Below, one piece after another: positions 8,731 to 19,853 of a stretch of 64,000 nucleotides of DNA. The DNA comes from an uncultured Clostridia bacterium (lineage in GTDB: Bacteria; Bacillota; Clostridia; Oscillospirales; Ruminococcaceae). Each line of letters starts with the position of its first letter. The stretch's first letter is position 1. Under the pieces are notes generated by a model. That model did not search any database and had not been told where the DNA came from. It saw only the letters and a program-made list of their open reading frames with translations. The stretch spans positions 1-64,000 of the forward strand of contig CANQKD010000008.1 of NCBI GenBank assembly GCA_947624375.1, read 5' to 3'. Made by a program: the position numbers and the translations under genes.

Positions 8731-8981
8731 CAAAGCATTTTGCCATAGTTTAATATACCTTCCCTTCTTTGCCTTGCCCGATACCCCCCCTTCGGGCAGG
8801 GCGCTTTTTTGTATATCTGAACGCGTTATCACTTTAGCAGAATGATTATTTGCACAAAAGCGCTTGCAATTTTTGAAAAAGTATGTTACAATATATACAA
8901 CATGAAGTATTTATTTGTTTAAAGAATGAATTATTTCATACACAAAGGCAACAGACAGCCGTGCAGACAGGTGGGGATAAT

Positions 8982-11087
8982 ATGAGCGGCAATAATATCA
9001 CAAGTACAAACAATCGGACAGATTCACTTACGGGACTCAAAAGCTATGCGGCATTCAGGCAGGAAGTTCAGGCGGTAATAGACAGCGACGAGCAGGGCAT
9101 TGTAAACGGCGGGTATGTTCTGATATACTTCGATATAATGCGCTTCAAGGTGATAAATGACCTGTTCGGCACGCAGGAGGGCGATAATTTTCTGGTCTTT
9201 ATGGCGCAGCAGATAACCGCTATCGGCGGCAAGGGCTGCATTGCCACGCGCATAAATTCCGACAGATTCGCGTTGTTTGCAAAAAAGGGCAGAGAAGAGA
9301 CCGATAGGGACGTTCAGACGTTTTTGCAAAATGTTGCAGAATACCCCCTGCCGTATGAGATAATATGCAACATGGGCATATATGTTACAAAGCGCGTTAT
9401 GAAAGCCGAGTTCATGCTGGACAGGGCAATTCTGGCATACTCTATAATCAAAGGCGACTATGTTAAACGCTATAATTATTACGATTCTTCGCAGCGTGAT
9501 GCAATGCTGGGCGAGCAGGAGATAACCAGCATGATGAGAGCCGCGCTGGCAGACAGGCAGTTTGTTGTATACTATCAGCCGCAGTATAATCATACTGACG
9601 GTTCTTTGGTGGGCGCTGAGGCGCTTGTGCGCTGGAAACACCCCAAGAGGGGTATAATACCTCCCGGCGTTTTCATACCCATTTTTGAAAAGAACGGCTT
9701 TATCACCGAGCTTGACCTTTATGTCTTTGATGAGGTGTGCGCTTTCATACGCCGATCGATAGATCATGGCAACAAGACCGTGCCAATATCGGTAAACATA
9801 AGCAGGCGCGATATCTACAAACCCGATATCGTCGGTGTAATGGAGAGCATTCGCCAAAAGTATGATGTGCCCGTTGATCTTTTGCGTATTGAAGTTACCG
9901 AAAGCGCGATAATCGACGGCGTGCAGCAGCTCAACGATGTTATAGACCAGCTGCACAAAAAGCATTATATCATAGAAATGGACGACTTCGGCAGCGCGTA
10001 TTCATCGCTCAATGCGCTGAAAAATATCGACCTTGACATACTGAAACTCGATCTGAAATTCCTTGCCGACGACAAGAAAGAGAGCGATAAAAAGCACGGC
10101 GGCATAATACTCAGCCACGTGGTAAGAATGGCAAAATGGCTGGGCTTTTCGGTAATTGCCGAGGGCGTTGAGCATATGGAGCAGGCGGACTATCTGCTCA
10201 GCATAGGCTGCTGCAATATACAAGGTTTTCTGTATGCCAGACCGATGCCTGAGAGCGATTATACCGACCTTTTGAAGACCGCACAGCTTAGCAAGACCAT
10301 GCCTGCAATGCACCTTATAAGCACTATGGACGCAGACAATTTCTGGGATCCAAAGTCGCTGGAAACGCTTATTTTCAACAACTATGTTGGCGGCGCGGTC
10401 ATATTTGAATACCGCAGCGGAGACATCGAGCCGCTCAGGATAAACAAAAAGTACATCAGAGAGATAGGCGGTCAGTTCACAGAAGATCATATTATGGCAA
10501 GTGAACCGCTGGGTATGCTTGACGATCTGAACAAGAAGATATACATCGATATGCTTGAAAGAGCCATCAAGAGCGAGCAGGAGGAAGAATGTGAAACGTG
10601 GCGCACTTATGAGGGCTGCAAAGAACCGATATGCGTGCGTTCTTCGGTGCAGCTCATAGGCAAAAGCGTTGACAGCTATCTTTTCTATGCGATGATTCGC
10701 AATATAACAGCCGAGAAGAAAGCTATGGAAGAAATAATCCACCGCGAAAAGCTGTTCAGGGCTGCCAGCGAACAGGTGAATATATACTACTGGGAATATG
10801 ATGTAAAGACCAAAAATATGTACCCTTGTTTTCGGTGTATAAGAGATCTGCACCTGCCCGATGTGGTCTGCAACTACCCCGAACCTGCCATAGAAATGGG
10901 TATTTTCCCGATCGAGGTGGCAGATGAGTACCGCGAGATACACAAGCGTATAGAAAACGGCGAAAAGGAGATAGAGACCGTTATGCCCCTTACCGCCGCG
11001 AGAGTGCCTTTCAAGGTGCGCTATACCACAGAATTTGATGAAAACGGCGTACCGATAAGAGCGTATGGCTCTGCGGCGAAGATATGA
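8982..11087 (+). CDS. Degenerate GGDEF (RINSDRFALF) plus EAL (GAEALVRW) domain protein with a ~270-aa C-terminal domain of unknown function
   Basis: Start set at MSGNNITS. The EAL signature and downstream catalytic motifs (DDFG, KLD, EGVE) are intact, while the GGDEF motif is replaced by SDRFA. A sigma-A-like promoter is at 8856-8885: TTGCAA, 17 nt, TACAAT. Confidence 0.8.
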   Translation: MSGNNITSTNNRTDSLTGLKSYAAFRQEVQAVIDSDEQGIVNGGYVLIYFDIMRFKVINDLFGTQEGDNFLVFMAQQITAIGGKGCIATRINSDRFALFAKKGREETDRDVQTFLQNVAEYPLPYEIICNMGIYVTKRVMKAEFMLDRAILAYSIIKGDYVKRYNYYDSSQRDAMLGEQEITSMMRAALADRQFVVYYQPQYNHTDGSLVGAEALVRWKHPKRGIIPPGVFIPIFEKNGFITELDLYVFDEVCAFIRRSIDHGNKTVPISVNISRRDIYKPDIVGVMESIRQKYDVPVDLLRIEVTESAIIDGVQQLNDVIDQLHKKHYIIEMDDFGSAYSSLNALKNIDLDILKLDLKFLADDKKESDKKHGGIILSHVVRMAKWLGFSVIAEGVEHMEQADYLLSIGCCNIQGFLYARPMPESDYTDLLKTAQLSKTMPAMHLISTMDADNFWDPKSLETLIFNNYVGGAVIFEYRSGDIEPLRINKKYIREIGGQFTEDHIMASEPLGMLDDLNKKIYIDMLERAIKSEQEEECETWRTYEGCKEPICVRSSVQLIGKSVDSYLFYAMIRNITAEKKAMEEIIHREKLFRAASEQVNIYYWEYDVKTKNMYPCFRCIRDLHLPDVVCNYPEPAIEMGIFPIEVADEYREIHKRIENGEKEIETVMPLTAARVPFKVRYTTEFDENGVPIRAYGSAAKI

Positions 11088-11129
11088 ATATACGGCGAAC
11101 GGTTTTTGTGACTTTACGGGAGGTGCTTT

Positions 11130-11573
11130 ATGGATAATACCACTATGTCCGGAAAATTTATGCGGTCAAAGCCGGTAAGAATGATCTTTCCGTTTTTAAA
11201 AAAGTATCGTGAAATACTGCTATACATTATCTTCGTGGGAGCAGCGCTCCTTTTGAATAACGCAATGGCTCTTCCTTTTGAAGATGGTATAATATCATTT
11301 TTGTATAGCAGGGCACATGGTTGGATAGTCTGTGTGGTCTTGCAGTTTATTGTGAACAAATACATTGTCTTTCGCAGAGAAGTCAAAGGCAATATATGGC
11401 TTCAGATGCTGAAGTTTGCGTTTTGCTGTCTGCTAACGCTTTCTGTTCAGATAATACTGATAGTGGAGCTGTATTTCACTTTTGTATTTTCGTGGAATAT
11501 GATAAGGCTGATCCTTTGTGCCTTTGCGGTAATAGTGAATTATCTGGTATGCAAGTTTTGGGTCTTCAAGTGA
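11130..11573 (+). CDS. GtrA-family membrane protein
   Basis: 4 TM helices. The C-terminus ...NYLVCKFWVFK is typical of GtrA-like proteins. Confidence 0.6.
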   Translation: MDNTTMSGKFMRSKPVRMIFPFLKKYREILLYIIFVGAALLLNNAMALPFEDGIISFLYSRAHGWIVCVVLQFIVNKYIVFRREVKGNIWLQMLKFAFCCLLTLSVQIILIVELYFTFVFSWNMIRLILCAFAVIVNYLVCKFWVFK

Positions 11574-11721
11574 TCCGCATATAGCAATATATGGGCGCGG
11601 CGGTGTTCGCGTCTGTATTTTTTTGAAAAAATTTTAATAGGCTCTTTACATTTTTATGGAATTACTATATAATATAAATATATGTATATTAAAAGTATTA
11701 AAAGCGCGAAAGGAAATATTT

Positions 11722-15095: not shown

Positions 15096-15136
15096 ATAAG
15101 TACGAAAAAAGCCGTGCATCAAAGCGATGTACGGCT
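15096..15136. terminator. Bidirectional intrinsic terminator between the convergent hydrolase and SASP genes
   Basis: A GC-rich hairpin (gccgtgcatc...gatgtacggc) is flanked by an A-run and a T-run. Confidence 0.6.
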
Positions 15137-15152
15137 TTTGCTTGCAGTAAAA

Positions 15153-15341
15153 TTACTGTCTGTTTCCGCTCTTGTAAGCGTCGATCATTTTCTTAACCAT
15201 CTGACCGCCTACGGAACCTGCCTCGCGAGAAGTCAGGTCGCCGTTGTAGCCCTGCTTGAGGTTTACGCCGACTTCGTTGGCAGCCTCCATCTTAAATCTT
15301 TCGAGGGTCTGTCTGCCCTGATCTGTAGTAATACCTTTCAT
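15153..15341 (-). CDS. Small acid-soluble spore protein, alpha/beta type
   Basis: 62 aa. Contains EVGVNL and TSREAGSVGGQMVKKMI, which are the two conserved SASP motifs. Confidence 0.85.
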   Translation of the reverse strand: MKGITTDQGRQTLERFKMEAANEVGVNLKQGYNGDLTSREAGSVGGQMVKKMIDAYKSGNRQ

Positions 15342-15737
15342 TACTTACACTCCTTAAATAGAATCTGTTCGTTAGGGAACATACTGTTATTTTGTAAAAT
15401 ATCCGCGAATTTATTAGTGGAAATGCCTGGGGAAAAGTCTGCCGCAGTCCGGCGAGGCATTTGACCGCAGGCACTGAAGCCTTAAAATACAAACGCGGAA
15501 ATTTTTTGCCGCGCGATATTTCGCACAGCGATACAGTTCATATTTACCCCTGATATATTTGCGGTTTTTGCCGCTGAAAGTATTTTAACCGAAGCTTTCG
15601 CTAATATGTAATTTTCGCGTTGACAAATAATTGAAGATTTTTTGTAAGCAACAAGCATAAAAAACAAACCGAAGGGATTTAACGTTCCTTCGGCTTTTTG
15701 TAAAATGCCGGATCGCTCCGATTCGGCGTAATAAAAG

Positions 15738-18700
15738 TTACTCATCATCATTTTCCGATGCGTTTTTATTACCGTCATCTGATTTTTCTGAGGCTGCAAT
15801 ATCTCCCGATGCTGTGTAGATGCTGTTAAGCAGTTCTAACACACGGATGAACAGGGGATCGTTCTTTATTTCCGGTTTTTCAATAATGGCAATTTCTTTT
15901 TCAAAGCAACGTTTTACAGCGGCAATATCACCTTGCTTTAAAAAGCTCACGATCAGACCTGTAAAGCATATACAAAAACTATTGCAGCAAAGATCAAGCG
16001 CCACCTTGTTTATATTAGAGTCCTCATGTTCTGCCAGTTTCTCCCTGATGGGAATTTCCTTTTCATATAATTCTACTGCGTAAGCGTAGTCTTCCTGCTT
16101 TTGGCAGATGTCGCCAAGATCTCTGTAGCAATCAGCAAGTTTTTTCAGGTTATCGCCGTGATCATCATTTTCTGCCTTTTTTTCTAAAATGGCAATTGCT
16201 TTTTCAAAACAGATCTTAGCCTCGCCGTAGTCTTTCGTTTCTTTGCAGATGCTGCCAAGCACGCTTAACACAGTGATGTACATTGGCTTGTTCTTTATTT
16301 CCGGTTTTTCAATAATGGCAATTTCTTTTTCAAAGCAACGTTTTACAGCGGCAATATCACCTTGCTTTAAAAAGCTCACGATCAGACCTGTAAAGCATAT
16401 ACAAAAACTATTGCAGCAAAGATCAAGCGCCACCTTGTTTATATTAGAGTCCTCATGTTCTGCCAGTTTCTCCCTGATGGGAATTTCCTTTTCATATAAT
16501 TCTACTGCGTAAGCGTAGTCTTCCTGCTTTTGGCAGATGTCGCCAAGATCTCTGTAGCAATCAGCAAGTTTTTTCAGGTTATCGCCGTGATCATCATTTT
16601 CTGCCTTTTTTTCTAAAATGGCAATTGCTTTTTCAAAACAGATCTTAGCCTCGCCGTAGTCTTTCGTTTCTTTGCAGATGCTGCCAAGCACGCTTAACAC
16701 AGTGATGTACATTGGCTTGTTCTTTATTGCCGGTTTTTCAATAATGGCAATTTCTTTTTCATAGCAATTTTTTGCAGCAGCAAGATCACCTTGCTTTACA
16801 AAGCGTATGAGCAGACTAGTAAAGCATAAACAAAAACTATTGCAGCAAAGATCAAGTGCCACCTTGTTTATATAAGGGCCCTCATGTTCTGCCAGTTTTT
16901 CTCTGATGGGAATTTCTTTTTTATATAATTCTACTGCGTAAGCGTAGTCTTCCTGCTTTTGGCAGATGTCGCCAAGATCTCTGTAACAATCAGCAAGTAC
17001 TTTCAGCATTGCATCAGGATCATCAGGTCCCGCTAGTTTTTCTAAAATGGCAATAGCTTTTTCATATCGGTCTTTAGCAGTTATGTAGTCTTCCTGCTTT
17101 TTGCAGATGTCGCCAAGATCGCTGTAACAAACAGCGATATTTTTCTGTGTCTCGTCAGAATCATCATGCTCAGCCAGCCTTTCTAAAATGGCAAGCGCTT
17201 TTTCATAACGTTCTTCAGCGGTGAAGTAGTCTTGTTGTTTTTTGCTGACGTCACCAAGATCGCTGTAACAAACGGCGATATCTCTTTGTATATCGTCAGG
17301 ATCATAATGCTTTGCCGGTTTCTCTAAATATTTAAGCGCTAGTTTATACGATTCTTCAGCGTAGTCGTATTCTTTGTATTTTTTGTAGTACATCTGGGCA
17401 TTACCAACAAGTCGGTAACAAAGAGAGACTGCTTTTTGCGCATATTCACGCTCGTCATCTTTTTTTGATAGTTTTTTTGGAGCTTTGTCAAACCAAATTT
17501 CCGCTGCCCAAATATAGCCTTTTCTCACGCAAATGATACCGATCTCGTAAGCAGTTTTAAAATCATCGTTCAGATGTGAAGTGTCTAAGTTTTCTGTTTT
17601 TGCTATGTCTTCTAAGGTGGATCCTTTTTCTCTTAAAATTGCTTTGCTCTGTAAAAATTCTTTGCCAAGAGATCCATAGGTCATATCCAGAGACTCGATC
17701 CATTCTTTTGCACCAGCAATATCGCCCTGCCTGTCACAGTCGTCGGCATGCCTGAAACAACGTGTAACAAACTTTTCAAAGTGTTTTTCCTCGATCAGCT
17801 TATCGGTTGCAACAGCCTTTTCAAAATAGACTTTTGCAGCGTCATTATCGCCCAGCTTGTGACAGAACACATAAAGCTTTACATAAGTTTCAGAAAGCGT
17901 GAAAAATGACATCTCGGAATTTTTTTCTTCTGCCTCTTTTTCTCTGACTGTGACTACTTTTTCATACCATACTCTGGCATTTGAAATATCTCCGTTCTTC
18001 TCATGAAAATCACCGATATCACTGTACAAATAATAAAACCGATCATTTGCCTTGTCAACATCTTCGGTCGCAGCCAGTTTTTCAGTAGCTTCGGCAGCTC
18101 TTTCATACCACATTATTGCCATGGGCAGATCTTCAAGATGTTTTCGCCAAAAATCGCCGGAAAAATTATAGATGCTATACAGTTCGCGGTATTCTTCAGC
18201 AGTGCCGATATGATCCGGCAGTTTTTCTTTGACCTTGAATGCTTTTTCTGACCACTCTATTGATTCCTGCGTTTTGTTAAGCTGTAAATAAGAAAAGCTT
18301 ATATCTAACAGCGTCTTGAAAAGATGATTTTCAAACCAATCATCAGAAAACCGCTTCATCAGTTCTTCTAAAACAGCAAGTTCTTTTTTGTATAGTTCCA
18401 GCGCATCCCACCAATTTGCATAAATTATTTCCCAATAATCCCATGTTTGTGTGGTATCTGATGCCCATTGACGGTAATCGAGCATCCATTGTCTTGCATC
18501 GCTTTCTGCCCCTGTTTTTTTGTACTGCTCTTCTCTGAGCTGCACAAGGCGTTTTTGCCATTTGATAGCATTCGGGAAATCACGCTCAACGCCCTCGCCT
18601 TCATGATATAAACTTGCCAGCTTTGAAATTGCTTCGGGCAGGTCTTGCTCTGCTGCGGCGGTTATCATCTTCACGGCACGTTCACGGTCTACCTCAACAT

Positions 18701-19643
18701 CTATTCCCGAAAGATATGCCAGCCCTATAAAAAACAGGTGCTGAGGGTCGTTGTTTTCTGTGCTTTCAAGCCCTAGCGCCTGTCTGACAGTCTCGGCGAT
18801 GCATTTCGGGTCACCTGCTGATATGGGCGAGGGTATATCTTTATACTTCTCCTGCAGAGCTTGTTTATCGGTTTCTACAAGTTCTACCGGCATAACGGGC
18901 TTTTGGCTTCTGGCAGCCTCTGGGTATTCCGTCGTCATCACATAGTTGTTGTCTTCCAGCAGATTCGGCGTTACCGCAAGAGCAAAAAGTTCGCTTTTTT
19001 TCATTGCTTCTTCTATTGCCTCGTTAAAGTTTTCGCCCGGCACAAGAAATTCATCATACCATATAGCGATATCGCGGCAAAAATCATTGCTGTGTATCAG
19101 CCGCATAAGCTTCTGCGCATATTCTCTGTCTTTTTTGCGGTAGCTGAGAAACACATATGCATCAAATGCAGCACGTATTTTTTCGATCATTTCATCGCCT
19201 ATAAGCACCGAATCAAGATATTGCTTCAGCTTGTATTCATAGCTTATCTGTGTGCGGTCATGAGAGTTTCGGTTCAGCATTTGCAGATCGCCGCATTTTT
19301 TGTTGAACGCCTCTTCAATATCGCTGTCTTCCTGTATTGGCAGCACGGGGATATGAAGTTTCTGTGCTTTTCTGAACACCTCAGAAAACGCAAAGGTATC
19401 CTGCTTGACAAAATTTGTGGTCACAACAAGCACTATCAGCTGCATGGATCTCAGGTCGCCTTTAAATGTTTTCATGTCCTCGGGGCGCTCGGGGTCGGGG
19501 TCATAAAACACGGCGCAGTTGCTGAATTTCAGCAGGTCGTCGGCTATTTCGTGCAAATACTTTTCAAATCCTGCGCTGTGACCGGTCACATACACTTTGG
19601 GTATGCCCTGCGCACTTATGCCTTTTCTGGTTATATACTGCAT
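15738..19643 (-). CDS. 1301-aa protein: an N-terminal TIR-like domain, a canonical TIR domain (AYVFLSYRKKD...IAIWYDEF), Sel1-like repeats, and then a long TPR array of more than 25 repeats that contains three in-frame 143-aa tandem units
   Basis: The TIR-domain call comes from motifs seen directly (VFLSYR, WYDE..L.PGE, a SELFALAVTPN βD-like strand). The Sel1 repeat is LAYLSGIDVEVDRERAVKMITAAAEQ. The gene is monocistronic and flanked by terminators. Confidence 0.8.
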   Translation of the reverse strand: MQYITRKGISAQGIPKVYVTGHSAGFEKYLHEIADDLLKFSNCAVFYDPDPERPEDMKTFKGDLRSMQLIVLVVTTNFVKQDTFAFSEVFRKAQKLHIPVLPIQEDSDIEEAFNKKCGDLQMLNRNSHDRTQISYEYKLKQYLDSVLIGDEMIEKIRAAFDAYVFLSYRKKDREYAQKLMRLIHSNDFCRDIAIWYDEFLVPGENFNEAIEEAMKKSELFALAVTPNLLEDNNYVMTTEYPEAARSQKPVMPVELVETDKQALQEKYKDIPSPISAGDPKCIAETVRQALGLESTENNDPQHLFFIGLAYLSGIDVEVDRERAVKMITAAAEQDLPEAISKLASLYHEGEGVERDFPNAIKWQKRLVQLREEQYKKTGAESDARQWMLDYRQWASDTTQTWDYWEIIYANWWDALELYKKELAVLEELMKRFSDDWFENHLFKTLLDISFSYLQLNKTQESIEWSEKAFKVKEKLPDHIGTAEEYRELYSIYNFSGDFWRKHLEDLPMAIMWYERAAEATEKLAATEDVDKANDRFYYLYSDIGDFHEKNGDISNARVWYEKVVTVREKEAEEKNSEMSFFTLSETYVKLYVFCHKLGDNDAAKVYFEKAVATDKLIEEKHFEKFVTRCFRHADDCDRQGDIAGAKEWIESLDMTYGSLGKEFLQSKAILREKGSTLEDIAKTENLDTSHLNDDFKTAYEIGIICVRKGYIWAAEIWFDKAPKKLSKKDDEREYAQKAVSLCYRLVGNAQMYYKKYKEYDYAEESYKLALKYLEKPAKHYDPDDIQRDIAVCYSDLGDVSKKQQDYFTAEERYEKALAILERLAEHDDSDETQKNIAVCYSDLGDICKKQEDYITAKDRYEKAIAILEKLAGPDDPDAMLKVLADCYRDLGDICQKQEDYAYAVELYKKEIPIREKLAEHEGPYINKVALDLCCNSFCLCFTSLLIRFVKQGDLAAAKNCYEKEIAIIEKPAIKNKPMYITVLSVLGSICKETKDYGEAKICFEKAIAILEKKAENDDHGDNLKKLADCYRDLGDICQKQEDYAYAVELYEKEIPIREKLAEHEDSNINKVALDLCCNSFCICFTGLIVSFLKQGDIAAVKRCFEKEIAIIEKPEIKNKPMYITVLSVLGSICKETKDYGEAKICFEKAIAILEKKAENDDHGDNLKKLADCYRDLGDICQKQEDYAYAVELYEKEIPIREKLAEHEDSNINKVALDLCCNSFCICFTGLIVSFLKQGDIAAVKRCFEKEIAIIEKPEIKNDPLFIRVLELLNSIYTASGDIAASEKSDDGNKNASENDDE
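15861..17147. repeat. Three tandem 429-bp (143-codon) repeats inside the TIR-TPR gene. Units 15861-16289 and 16290-16718 are essentially identical; unit 3 (16719-17147) is diverged
   Basis: Shown by direct comparison of the sequence. The antisense ORFs 15820-16083 and 16243-16512 are mirror artefacts of these repeats. Confidence 0.85.
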
Positions 19644-19853
19644 ATATGTCCCTCCGTAGATCGAAAGTCTGATATTGCGCCCATATGATGGCGGGCTTTA
19701 TTTTATTGTAACACGATTTTCACAAATTGTCAACCGCGGGCTGCGAAAAATAAGTTTTATAACATTATCTTGTATCACCCTGTCGTATTGTGACATATTA
19801 TGTATCGGGAAATAAATTCCCCACTTATTCCGATACAGAAAGGCAGCGGCATA

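What the first reader, a model, noticed from the sequence alone, without database searches (positions are those of the whole stretch)
15861..17147. Two DNA-identical 429-bp in-frame tandem units plus a third diverged one inside the TPR sensor array
Units 15861-16289 and 16290-16718 are identical at the nucleotide level over essentially their full length. A third unit, 16719-17147, is about 85-90% identical. Each unit encodes 143 aa, roughly four TPRs. Perfect identity implies very recent duplication or ongoing unequal crossing-over, which is the behaviour expected of a rapidly evolving or contingency-type ligand-binding array, as in LRR expansion in immune receptors. It is also a classic site for assembly collapse or expansion errors.
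Basis: seen in the sequence. Interest (0 to 1): 0.6.

Follow-up and report, generated by a model that had tools for sequence, protein, structure and literature searches.

The report
Fresh repeat duplication in TIR–TPR protein
A gut bacterium's probable anti-phage protein (a TIR enzyme head on a long TPR repeat tail) carries a brand-new, perfectly identical 143-residue duplication in its tail; related strains differ in repeat number, which makes it a typical example of a fast-changing repeat array rather than a new kind of system.

Summary
Window 15861-16289 and 16290-16718 are identical (429/429 nt), and the exact repeat runs 439 nt.

All units lie in one minus-strand gene (15738-19643, 1301 aa). 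Its layout is a degenerate TIR-like domain, a TIR with an invariant Glu239, two Sel1 repeats and a long TPR solenoid, with no NTPase. Each 143-aa unit is three helical hairpins (47+54+42 aa), not four TPRs.

The duplication junction is a chimera of two neighbouring repeats joined in a 10-nt microhomology. That is the signature of unequal recombination or slippage, and an assembler working from a 2-unit genome could not invent it.

- A second strain has the same gene, with 0 mismatches, minus exactly one 429-bp unit.
- A third lineage (4 contigs) instead has an extra 141-nt repeat.
- Family-wide, 141-nt/47-aa arrays are highly homogeneous, and close relatives form 47-aa length ladders.

Short-read collapse cannot be excluded for any single copy count. 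The gene is a self-contained cassette in a slot that holds a type II restriction-modification (R-M) system in a sister species. The recent-duplication reading is supported, the "contingency locus" reading is not, and the immune-sensor role is inferred.

The parts
15738..19643 (-). Single gene (1301 aa) encoding TIR-like + TIR + Sel1 + TPR solenoid. It contains all the repeat units.
   Evidence: ORF list and translation. Pfam: TPR_12 7.7e-57, TIR_2 7.8e-12 (46.2 bits vs 28 cut-off), Sel1 2.1e-9. AF2 model of the 1158-aa allele, pLDDT 78.5.
19269..19643 (-). N-terminal degenerate TIR-like (flavodoxin-like alpha/beta) domain, aa 1-125, with no invariant Glu.
   Evidence: AF2 beta-alpha alternation, pLDDT about 90. 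At the position equivalent to the catalytic Glu, only 43 of 90 sequences have E.
18846..19166 (-). TIR domain, aa 160-266, with an invariant candidate catalytic Glu239.
18549..18746 (-). Two Sel1 repeats, aa about 300-365.
   Evidence: Pfam Sel1, 38 bits vs 30.7 cut-off. The block is conserved across the family.
16638..17066 (-). Older repeat unit A (a1-b1-c1, aa 860-1002), 90% identical to unit B.
   Evidence: 43/429 differences. The c1 vs c2 comparison shows only 2 nt differences. dN/dS is 0.48 for a and 0.53 for b.
16209..16637 (-). Repeat unit B1 (a2-b2-c2, aa 1003-1145). Its c2 repeat is the chimeric duplication junction.
   Evidence: Segmentation of the array. Junction sequence.
15906..16208 (-). 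Repeat unit B2 (a2-b2, aa 1146-1246), identical to B1. It is followed by the terminal c3 repeat and acidic tail (15741-15905).
15861..16728 (-). The two exact 439-nt copies (15861-16299 and 16290-16728). They overlap in the 10-nt crossover microhomology GTTCTTTATT (+ strand, 16290-16299).
   Evidence: Exact-run scan. Comparison of the c1, c2 and c3 heads.
19705..19733 (-). Promoter-like site TTGACA-17-TACAAT with a TG extension, 62 nt upstream of the ATG.
   Evidence: Consensus scan, 11/12 matches. Consensus match only.
15660..15694 (-). Intrinsic-terminator-like hairpin (GCCGAAGG...CCTTCGG followed by a T run) about 45 nt after the stop codon. It reads as a terminator on both strands.
15698..19758 (.). 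Variable chromosomal slot filled by the gene cassette. In sister species L004 the same slot holds an HTH regulator plus an EcoRI-type methyltransferase and a restriction enzyme.
   Evidence: Synteny breakpoints. ORFs. Pfam and PADLOC hits.

Best explanation
The two identical 429-bp units are a real and very recent in-frame tandem duplication of a three-hairpin higher-order repeat. They sit in the C-terminal TPR solenoid of a stand-alone TIR-effector protein.

How the duplication arose. A 2-unit allele, like the one in strain L001, misaligned its c1 and c3 repeats. These two repeats share 45 nt with 2 mismatches. Unequal recombination or replication slippage resolved in the last 10 nt (AATAAAGAAC). 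The product is a chimeric c2 repeat and a 439-nt exact direct repeat. That long exact repeat can now expand or contract easily by homologous recombination.

Family behaviour. The array belongs to a large family in gut Oscillospiraceae. The N-terminal head (TIR-like domain, catalytic TIR, Sel1 repeats) is conserved. The tail of 47-aa TPR repeats is homogenised and varies in length between close relatives.

Inferred function, not shown. The TPR tail binds a phage-derived or other trigger. Binding releases or assembles the TIR domains, which consume NAD+ or make a nucleotide signal, as in single-protein TIR+TPR defence systems. Changes in repeat number alter the binding surface.
For: Shown:
- Exact identity and register of the repeats.
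- All units lie in one ORF.
- The c2 junction equals the c3 head plus the c1 tail. The junction k-mers (GAA...AAGCC) cannot occur in a 2-unit genome.
- L001 is a different strain: its flanks differ at 15/9403 and 63/6963 positions. Its gene has 0 mismatches and exactly one 429-bp unit fewer.
- The L002 lineage (4 contigs) has an independent 141-nt duplication with a 100-nt exact run.
- Family-wide, 42 of 122 homologues have at least 80% identity between repeats over 80 aa. Arrays of 141 nt reach 8.5 and 5.7 copies at 87% and 84% DNA identity.
- One 90%-identity cluster forms a ladder of 739/786/833/880/927/974 aa that differs only by 47-aa multiples. Two clusters with low internal identity keep a constant length.
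- The TIR fold and an invariant Glu239.
- A TPR solenoid with one hairpin per sub-repeat.
- The head module has 1,916 representatives (one per 50%-identity cluster) at E<=1e-30, with total lengths of 423-1903 aa among the 150 best listed.
- The cassette has its own promoter-like site and terminator.
- The same slot holds a type II R-M system in a sister species. The L002 strain has DpnII-type R-M and SLFN-helicase genes next to the gene. The pig-gut relative lies between a TIR-HD gene and a DUF87 gene.

From the literature:
- A single-protein TIR+TPR system (TIR-II) protects E. coli from phage and is widespread (PMC11350192).
Against: - No read-level data are available, so the true copy number in the window strain could be 3 or more. 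The 2-unit L001 allele (6.4x coverage) could be a collapsed assembly.
- In the pig-gut cluster, two assemblies from the same project with 1 mismatch in 6 kb of flank differ by 282 nt. Some of the length ladders may therefore be assembly noise.
- dN/dS between units is about 0.5, which gives no sign of diversifying selection.
- Several family members sit among housekeeping genes rather than in defence islands.
- PADLOC gives only weak hits, to the TPR or TIR region alone.
- No NADase activity, trigger or phage phenotype has been demonstrated.
Confidence: 0.6

Rival explanations
1. Assembly artefact. The source genome has a different number of B units, and the assembler traversed a de Bruijn loop the wrong number of times. 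In that case the perfect identity reflects collapsed or expanded reads rather than biology.
For: - A 439-nt exact tandem repeat exceeds short-read k-mer sizes.
- The related contigs are SPAdes or MEGAHIT metagenome assemblies at 6-20x coverage.
- Two pig-gut assemblies with near-identical flanks disagree by 282 nt in a homologous array.
Against: - The chimeric c2 junction needs k-mers that are absent from a 2-unit genome, so at least one duplication must exist in the DNA.
- The L002 rearrangement involves diverged copies and gives the same protein on 4 contigs.
- Length variation tracks internal repeat identity across clusters. Real recombination predicts this, but so does collapse.
Confidence: 0.12
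2. The duplication is real but functionally neutral. Repeat-number drift is a by-product of repetitive DNA. The protein is a TIR/TPR scaffold or regulator unrelated to phage sensing, for example one involved in signalling or sporulation-linked control.
For: - Many homologues are single genes among housekeeping genes: the ribosomal protein cluster, Spo0A, AddAB and parE/parC.
- dN/dS is about 0.5 between units.
- There is no significant hit to any defined PADLOC system.
Against: - The gene is accessory. It is absent from the same slot in sister species and replaced there by an R-M system.
- Defence genes are adjacent in L002 and L089.
- The invariant TIR Glu argues for enzymatic activity.
- TIR+TPR single proteins have experimentally shown anti-phage activity (PMC11350192).
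Confidence: 0.23
3. Classical contingency (phase-variable) locus. Repeat gain and loss would switch the protein ON and OFF at high frequency.
For: Tandem repeats sit inside a coding region, and strains differ in copy number.
Against: - The units are 429 or 141 nt long, and every observed variant stays in frame and full length.
- There are no homopolymer or short-unit tracts.
- Frameshift switching is impossible with these units.
Confidence: 0.03

Closest known systems
TIR-II single-protein TIR+TPR anti-phage system of E. coli (PMC11350192)
   Same: A TIR domain and a TPR region in one polypeptide. The gene stands alone. The paper describes the class as the most abundant and widespread TIR system.
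   Different: Here the head is a degenerate TIR-like domain, a TIR and two Sel1 repeats. The tail is a homogenised array of 47-aa repeats. The host is a gut Oscillospiraceae bacterium. Sequence relatedness to the tested E. coli protein could not be checked because no sequence was available. No phenotype is known.
Fungal NLRs with internally conserved WD40/ANK/TPR repeats (HET-E/NWD family; PMC4986451)
   Same: Repeats within one protein are at least 85% identical. Repeats evolve in concert, repeat number varies between alleles, and paralogues exchange sequence. An inter-paralogue conversion tract was found here.
   Different: There is no NACHT or NB-ARC NTPase here. The organism is bacterial. 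No evidence was found for positive selection at defined positions, only solvent-exposed variable stripes and dN/dS of about 0.5.
Avs/AVAST and other bacterial STAND NTPases with TPR sensors
   Same: An N-terminal effector followed by a C-terminal TPR-type repeat region that is presumed to bind phage proteins.
   Different: The defining STAND NTPase is absent.
SARM1 (ARM repeats-SAM-TIR NADase)
   Different: The domain order is reversed, there are no SAM domains, and the solenoid is TPR rather than ARM. The comparison is by fold only (19% identity).
Thoeris ThsB
   Different: There is no ThsA-type partner nearby. ThsB has no long fused TPR tail.

Membership tests
TPR repeat proteins (TPR_12/TPR_10 type) | Tandem helix-turn-helix repeats that match TPR profiles and form an alpha-solenoid. 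| tested here: met
   TPR_12 scores 189.9 bits against a 30.1 cut-off, and TPR_10 scores 104 bits. The AF2 model is all-helical hairpins. Foldseek hits are Ski3, Ctr9, consensus TPR and LGN.
TIR domain (NADase-type) | TIR fold. | tested here: met
TIR domain (NADase-type) | Conserved catalytic glutamate. | tested here: met
   E239 is invariant in 90/90 homologues and lies in N-Y-x-x-x-x-E-Y-P. Its identity as the catalytic residue is inferred from position only.
TIR domain (NADase-type) | NAD+ cleavage or signal synthesis. | not testable with these tools
   This needs a biochemical assay.
TIR-II defence system (PMC11350192) | TIR and TPR in one protein or one operon. | tested here: met
TIR-II defence system (PMC11350192) | Sequence homology to the validated E. 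coli TIR-II protein. | not tested
   No sequence or supplement is held for the paper. The E. coli genome collection cannot be searched by protein.
TIR-II defence system (PMC11350192) | Anti-phage activity that depends on the TIR active site. | not testable with these tools
   This needs an experiment.
STAND / NLR-like (Avs, bNACHT) | A central P-loop NTPase (NB-ARC, NACHT or AAA) between the effector and the repeats. | tested here: not met
   There is no NTPase Pfam hit. The AF2 model shows no alpha/beta domain after residue 266.
Thoeris | A TIR protein (ThsB) encoded next to a ThsA-type effector (SIR2, Macro, SLOG or TM). | tested here: not met
   The neighbours are a SASP, an unknown protein, kinases and an FMN reductase. 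The ThsB hit is weak, E 2.6e-4.
Contingency (phase-variable) locus | A short-unit repeat whose copy change shifts the frame or promoter spacing to switch expression. | tested here: not met
   The units are 429 or 141 nt long. All alleles are in frame.
Internally conserved repeat arrays (criterion of PMC4986451) | At least 85% identity between repeats over at least 100 aa. | tested here: met
   Identity is 100% over 146 aa, and 90% at the DNA level to the third unit. Across the family, 12 of 122 proteins reach at least 90% over 80 aa.

The most novel reading that the evidence does not exclude
Gut Oscillospiraceae carry a large, unnamed family of NTPase-less immune receptors with a degenerate TIR, a catalytic TIR, Sel1 repeats and a 47-aa TPR array. 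Genomes hold several paralogues. The sensor tails diversify by concerted evolution, repeat-number ladders and inter-paralogue gene conversion. This would be a bacterial counterpart of the hypervariable repeat regime of fungal NLRs. The window would capture one such event (a 429-bp higher-order duplication) essentially as it happened.
Probability: 0.3. Interest if true: 0.6.

Novelty: new member of a known kind. Interest (0 to 1): 0.4.

Why it matters
If the copy-number differences are real, this locus is a natural pair of otherwise identical alleles, with 0 mismatches and a difference of one three-hairpin unit. Such a pair allows a direct test of whether lengthening a TPR tail changes what a TIR effector responds to.

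It also points to a large, uncharacterised TIR-TPR family in gut anaerobes. The head module alone has about 1,900 representatives (one per 50%-identity cluster) at E<=1e-30. Its tails behave like the rapidly reshuffled repeat sensors of eukaryotic immune receptors.

There is a practical warning as well. Protein lengths for this family in short-read metagenome catalogues are unreliable.

Tried and rejected
- Phage collection, megablast of the gene: no match.
- Species-representative genomes, searched with the N-terminal half of the protein: no relative found. The organism was placed through RF2 instead.
- JGI metagenome scan with a 30-nt conserved stretch: no match.
- Exact look-up of the window protein's encoding contig: not on record.
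- PDB sequence search with the head region: only E 0.2 to the IL-1RAcP TIR domain. The fold search was needed.
- Whole-model Foldseek: only generic TPR solenoids.
- NCBIfam: only sub-threshold TPR noise.
- Boundary repeats or att-like sites around the cassette: none of 9 nt or longer.
- Supplementary data for the TIR-II sequence: not held.
- The idea that the L002 allele must derive from a 3-unit ancestor: dropped. A simple 141-nt tandem duplication explains it equally well.

Full report
**1. The observation**

A direct comparison shows window 15861-16289 and 16290-16718 are identical at 429 of 429 positions. The exact period-429 run extends over 439 nt, so 15861-16299 equals 16290-16728. Tandem Repeats Finder reports period 429, 2.9 copies, 93% matches and no indels over 15818-17064. 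It also finds a nested 141-nt periodicity just upstream.

In the natural register (16638-17066 vs 16209-16637) there are 43 differences, which is 90% identity. An exact repeat of this length cannot be chance.

**2. What the repeats sit in**

Everything lies in one minus-strand ORF, 15738-19643, of 1301 aa. The gene layout is:

- **TIR domain.** Pfam finds TIR_2 at aa 164-259, above its cut-off.
- **Sel1 repeats.** Two repeats lie near aa 300-365.
- **TPR array.** TPR_12 and TPR_10 give very strong matches through the C-terminal half. No NTPase domain is found.
- **Predicted structure.** The 1158-aa allele modelled with AlphaFold2 (pLDDT 78.5) has two flavodoxin-like alpha/beta domains at aa 1-125 and 160-266. 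An uninterrupted helical-hairpin solenoid follows.
- **Active site.** Glu239 is invariant in 90/90 homologues. The equivalent position in the first domain is not conserved. I therefore read domain 1 as a degenerate TIR-like domain and domain 2 as the catalytic TIR. This is an inference.

**3. Anatomy of the unit**

The array segments as a0 a1 b1 c1 | a2 b2 c2 | a2 b2 c3, with a = 47 aa, b = 54 aa and c = 42 aa. Each sub-repeat is one helix-turn-helix hairpin in the model. A 143-aa unit is therefore three hairpins, not four 34-aa TPRs.

A repeat HMM built from the family matches the 'a' repeats in full. It matches only the first 30 positions of 'b' and the last 15 positions of 'c'. The 429-bp unit is thus a higher-order repeat made of one canonical and two degenerate copies of the family's 47-aa/141-nt base repeat.

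**4. How the duplication arose**

The heads of the three c repeats read as follows:

| Repeat | Head sequence |
|---|---|
| c1 | TAT...GCAATAAAGAAC\|AAGCCAATG |
| c3 | TTT...GAAATAAAGAAC\|GATCCCCTG |
| c2 | TTT...GAAATAAAGAAC\|AAGCCAATG |

So c2 is the c3 head fused to the c1 tail. The crossover is confined to the 10 nt AATAAAGAAC, which explains why the exact repeat is 429+10 nt long.

This is what unequal recombination or slippage between c1 and c3 of a 2-unit allele would produce. The k-mers that join GAA to AAGCC cannot exist in a 2-unit genome, so an assembler could not have invented the junction. At least one duplication is physically present. The exact number of B units could still be mis-estimated.

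**5. Comparison across strains**

The 90%-identity protein cluster holds three lengths: 1301 aa (window), 1205 aa and 1158 aa.

- **L001 (1158 aa).** The gene has 0 mismatches to the window gene and a single 429-bp gap. Its flanks differ at 15/9403 and 63/6963 positions, so it is a different strain. Coverage is only 6.4x, so collapse of a 3-unit allele is not excluded.
- **L002 (1205 aa, same protein on 4 contigs).** It has one B unit plus an extra chimeric 47-aa repeat. This is a 141-nt tandem duplication with a 100-nt exact run and 6 mismatches. It is an independent event at the base-repeat level.

**6. Family behaviour**

- Of 122 homologues, 108 have at least five gapless 47-aa repeats.
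- 42 have at least 80% identity between repeats over an 80-aa window, always at periods that are multiples of 47.
- Two relatives examined at the DNA level carry 141-nt arrays of 8.5 and 5.7 copies, at 87% and 84% identity.
- In one 90%-identity cluster, full-length members measure 739, 786 (five proteins), 833 (two), 880, 927 and 974 aa. They are 98.9-100% identical apart from gaps of 47, 94, 141, 188 or 235 aa.
- Three of the four sampled clusters with high internal identity (0.84-0.90) vary by exact 47-aa steps. Two clusters with low internal identity (0.49, 0.53) keep a constant length in all 12 and 14 full-length members listed; three other low-identity clusters vary irregularly.

Homology-driven unequal recombination predicts this pattern. 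Short-read collapse predicts it too. Two pig-gut assemblies from the same project, with 1 mismatch in 6 kb of flank, differ by 282 nt.

The head module (aa 1-370) has 1,916 representatives (one per 50%-identity cluster) at E<=1e-30. Among the 150 best listed, total protein lengths run from 423 to 1903 aa. The pattern is a conserved head with a variable tail.

Within proteins, the most variable repeat positions are 9, 30, 31, 37, 27, 34, 20, 5 and 43. They form i/i+3/i+4 stripes on both helices, strongest on helix A. This fits solvent-exposed, possibly ligand-facing surfaces. I could not map them onto concave or convex faces. Between units A and B, dN/dS is about 0.5, so there is no sign of diversifying selection.

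**7. Genomic context**

The window is ordinary chromosome. It encodes GGDEF/EAL, RF2, kinases, an FMN reductase, FeoB and similar proteins. The closest genomes by RF2 are rabbit-gut MAGs labelled uncultured Clostridia, followed by Ruminococcus and Oscillospiraceae MAGs.

The gene has lower GC than its surroundings (about 40% against 44-49% in the adjacent intervals). It has its own strong promoter-like site and a terminator hairpin.

Synteny with sister species L004 breaks exactly at window 15698 and 19758. There the slot holds an HTH regulator, an EcoRI-type methyltransferase and a type II restriction enzyme. A third species has unrelated membrane proteins in the slot. In L002, DpnII-type R-M and SLFN-helicase genes lie just downstream. 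The pig-gut relative sits between a TIR-HD protein and a DUF87 ATPase.

Against this, other family members lie among ribosomal, Spo0A, AddAB or parE/parC genes. The defence-island signal is therefore suggestive but not uniform.

**8. Comparison with known systems**

- A single-protein TIR+TPR system (TIR-II) gives TIR-dependent phage protection in E. coli. It is described as the most widespread TIR system (PMC11350192). Architecture matches. Homology could not be tested.
- STAND/Avs membership fails because the NTPase is absent.
- Thoeris membership fails because there is no ThsA partner.
- The evolutionary regime matches the 'internal repeat conservation' of fungal NLR repeat domains (PMC4986451), including exchange between paralogues.
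- A paralogue (P0003, 808 aa, beside parE/parC) has donated, or received, a tract of about 100 nt. Gene nt 181-270 of the L002 allele are 96-100% identical to the paralogue but only 70-86% identical to the window allele.

**9. Verdict**

The 'recent duplication / unequal crossing-over' reading is well supported by the junction anatomy and the allele series. The 'contingency locus' reading is not supported. The immune-sensor role is a reasonable inference.

Copy numbers from short-read assemblies remain uncertain. This is a clean, dateable example of a known evolutionary mode, in an uncharacterised member of a known architectural class.

Noticed in passing
window 16806-16862, 16377-16433, 15948-16004 (aa 928-946, 1071-1089, 1214-1232): Each unit's 54-aa 'b' hairpin contains a very hydrophobic, Cys-rich stretch, VALDLCCNSFCICFTGLIV. 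Its Kyte-Doolittle 19-aa mean is 1.9-2.0, which is in the transmembrane range. Only this allele group has it; the 3 other family proteins that exceed 1.8 do so with an unrelated segment. The last 450 aa of the protein are 5.6% Cys, against a whole-protein family median of 1.6%. AF2 confidence is low there. Its meaning is unknown (buried core, metal site or membrane contact).
   Followed up: partly
window ~19374-19463 (gene nt 181-270); L002 6181-6270; L083 ~10181-10280: This is an inter-paralogue gene-conversion tract in the N-terminal TIR-like domain. The L002 allele is 96-100% identical to paralogue P0003 there, but only 70-86% identical to the window allele. Elsewhere in the first 900 nt of the gene the two alleles are almost identical.
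   Followed up: yes
window 15698-19758 vs L004 11092-13775 and L005 12690-15482: The TIR-TPR cassette occupies a variable slot. A sister species has an HTH regulator, an EcoRI-type methyltransferase and a GmrSD_N/HNH type II restriction enzyme at the same place. Another species has FtsX-like membrane proteins. No flanking repeats of 9 nt or longer were found.
   Followed up: yes
L083-L085 (gene at 10001-12427 in L083): A second family member (808 aa, 57% identical) sits beside parE/parC in contigs of the same ENA ERZ272 accession series. Its record lists a longest contig of 116,836 bp, the same length as the contig recorded for the window protein. The genome therefore probably carries at least two paralogues.
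   Followed up: partly
window ~15152-15340 (minus strand): A 62-aa small acid-soluble spore protein (SASP) gene lies just downstream of the TIR-TPR gene, as mapped from the L001 gene calls. The 116-aa plus-strand ORF 15114-15464 is probably its spurious antisense. The host is therefore a spore-former.
   Followed up: no
L088 vs L089 (pig-gut homologue, gene at 3001-): Two assemblies from the same pig-gut project have 1 mismatch in 6 kb of flank, yet differ by 282 nt (two 47-aa repeats) in the homologous array. The longest exact repeat is only 60-120 nt. This is either within-population polymorphism or an assembler artefact. It is a warning for all catalogue lengths in this family.
   Followed up: partly
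L089 1-2399: The pig-gut homologue's upstream neighbour is a 1452-aa TIR_2 + HD_3 protein, and a DUF87 (HerA-like) ATPase lies downstream. This is a defence-island-like neighbourhood with a second TIR gene.
   Followed up: no
window 8810-11625 vs L004: The GGDEF/EAL gene (8883-11087) and the GtrA-like gene (11130-11573) have no counterpart in the aligned region of sister species L004. This is a second strain- or species-variable segment close to the finding.
   Followed up: no
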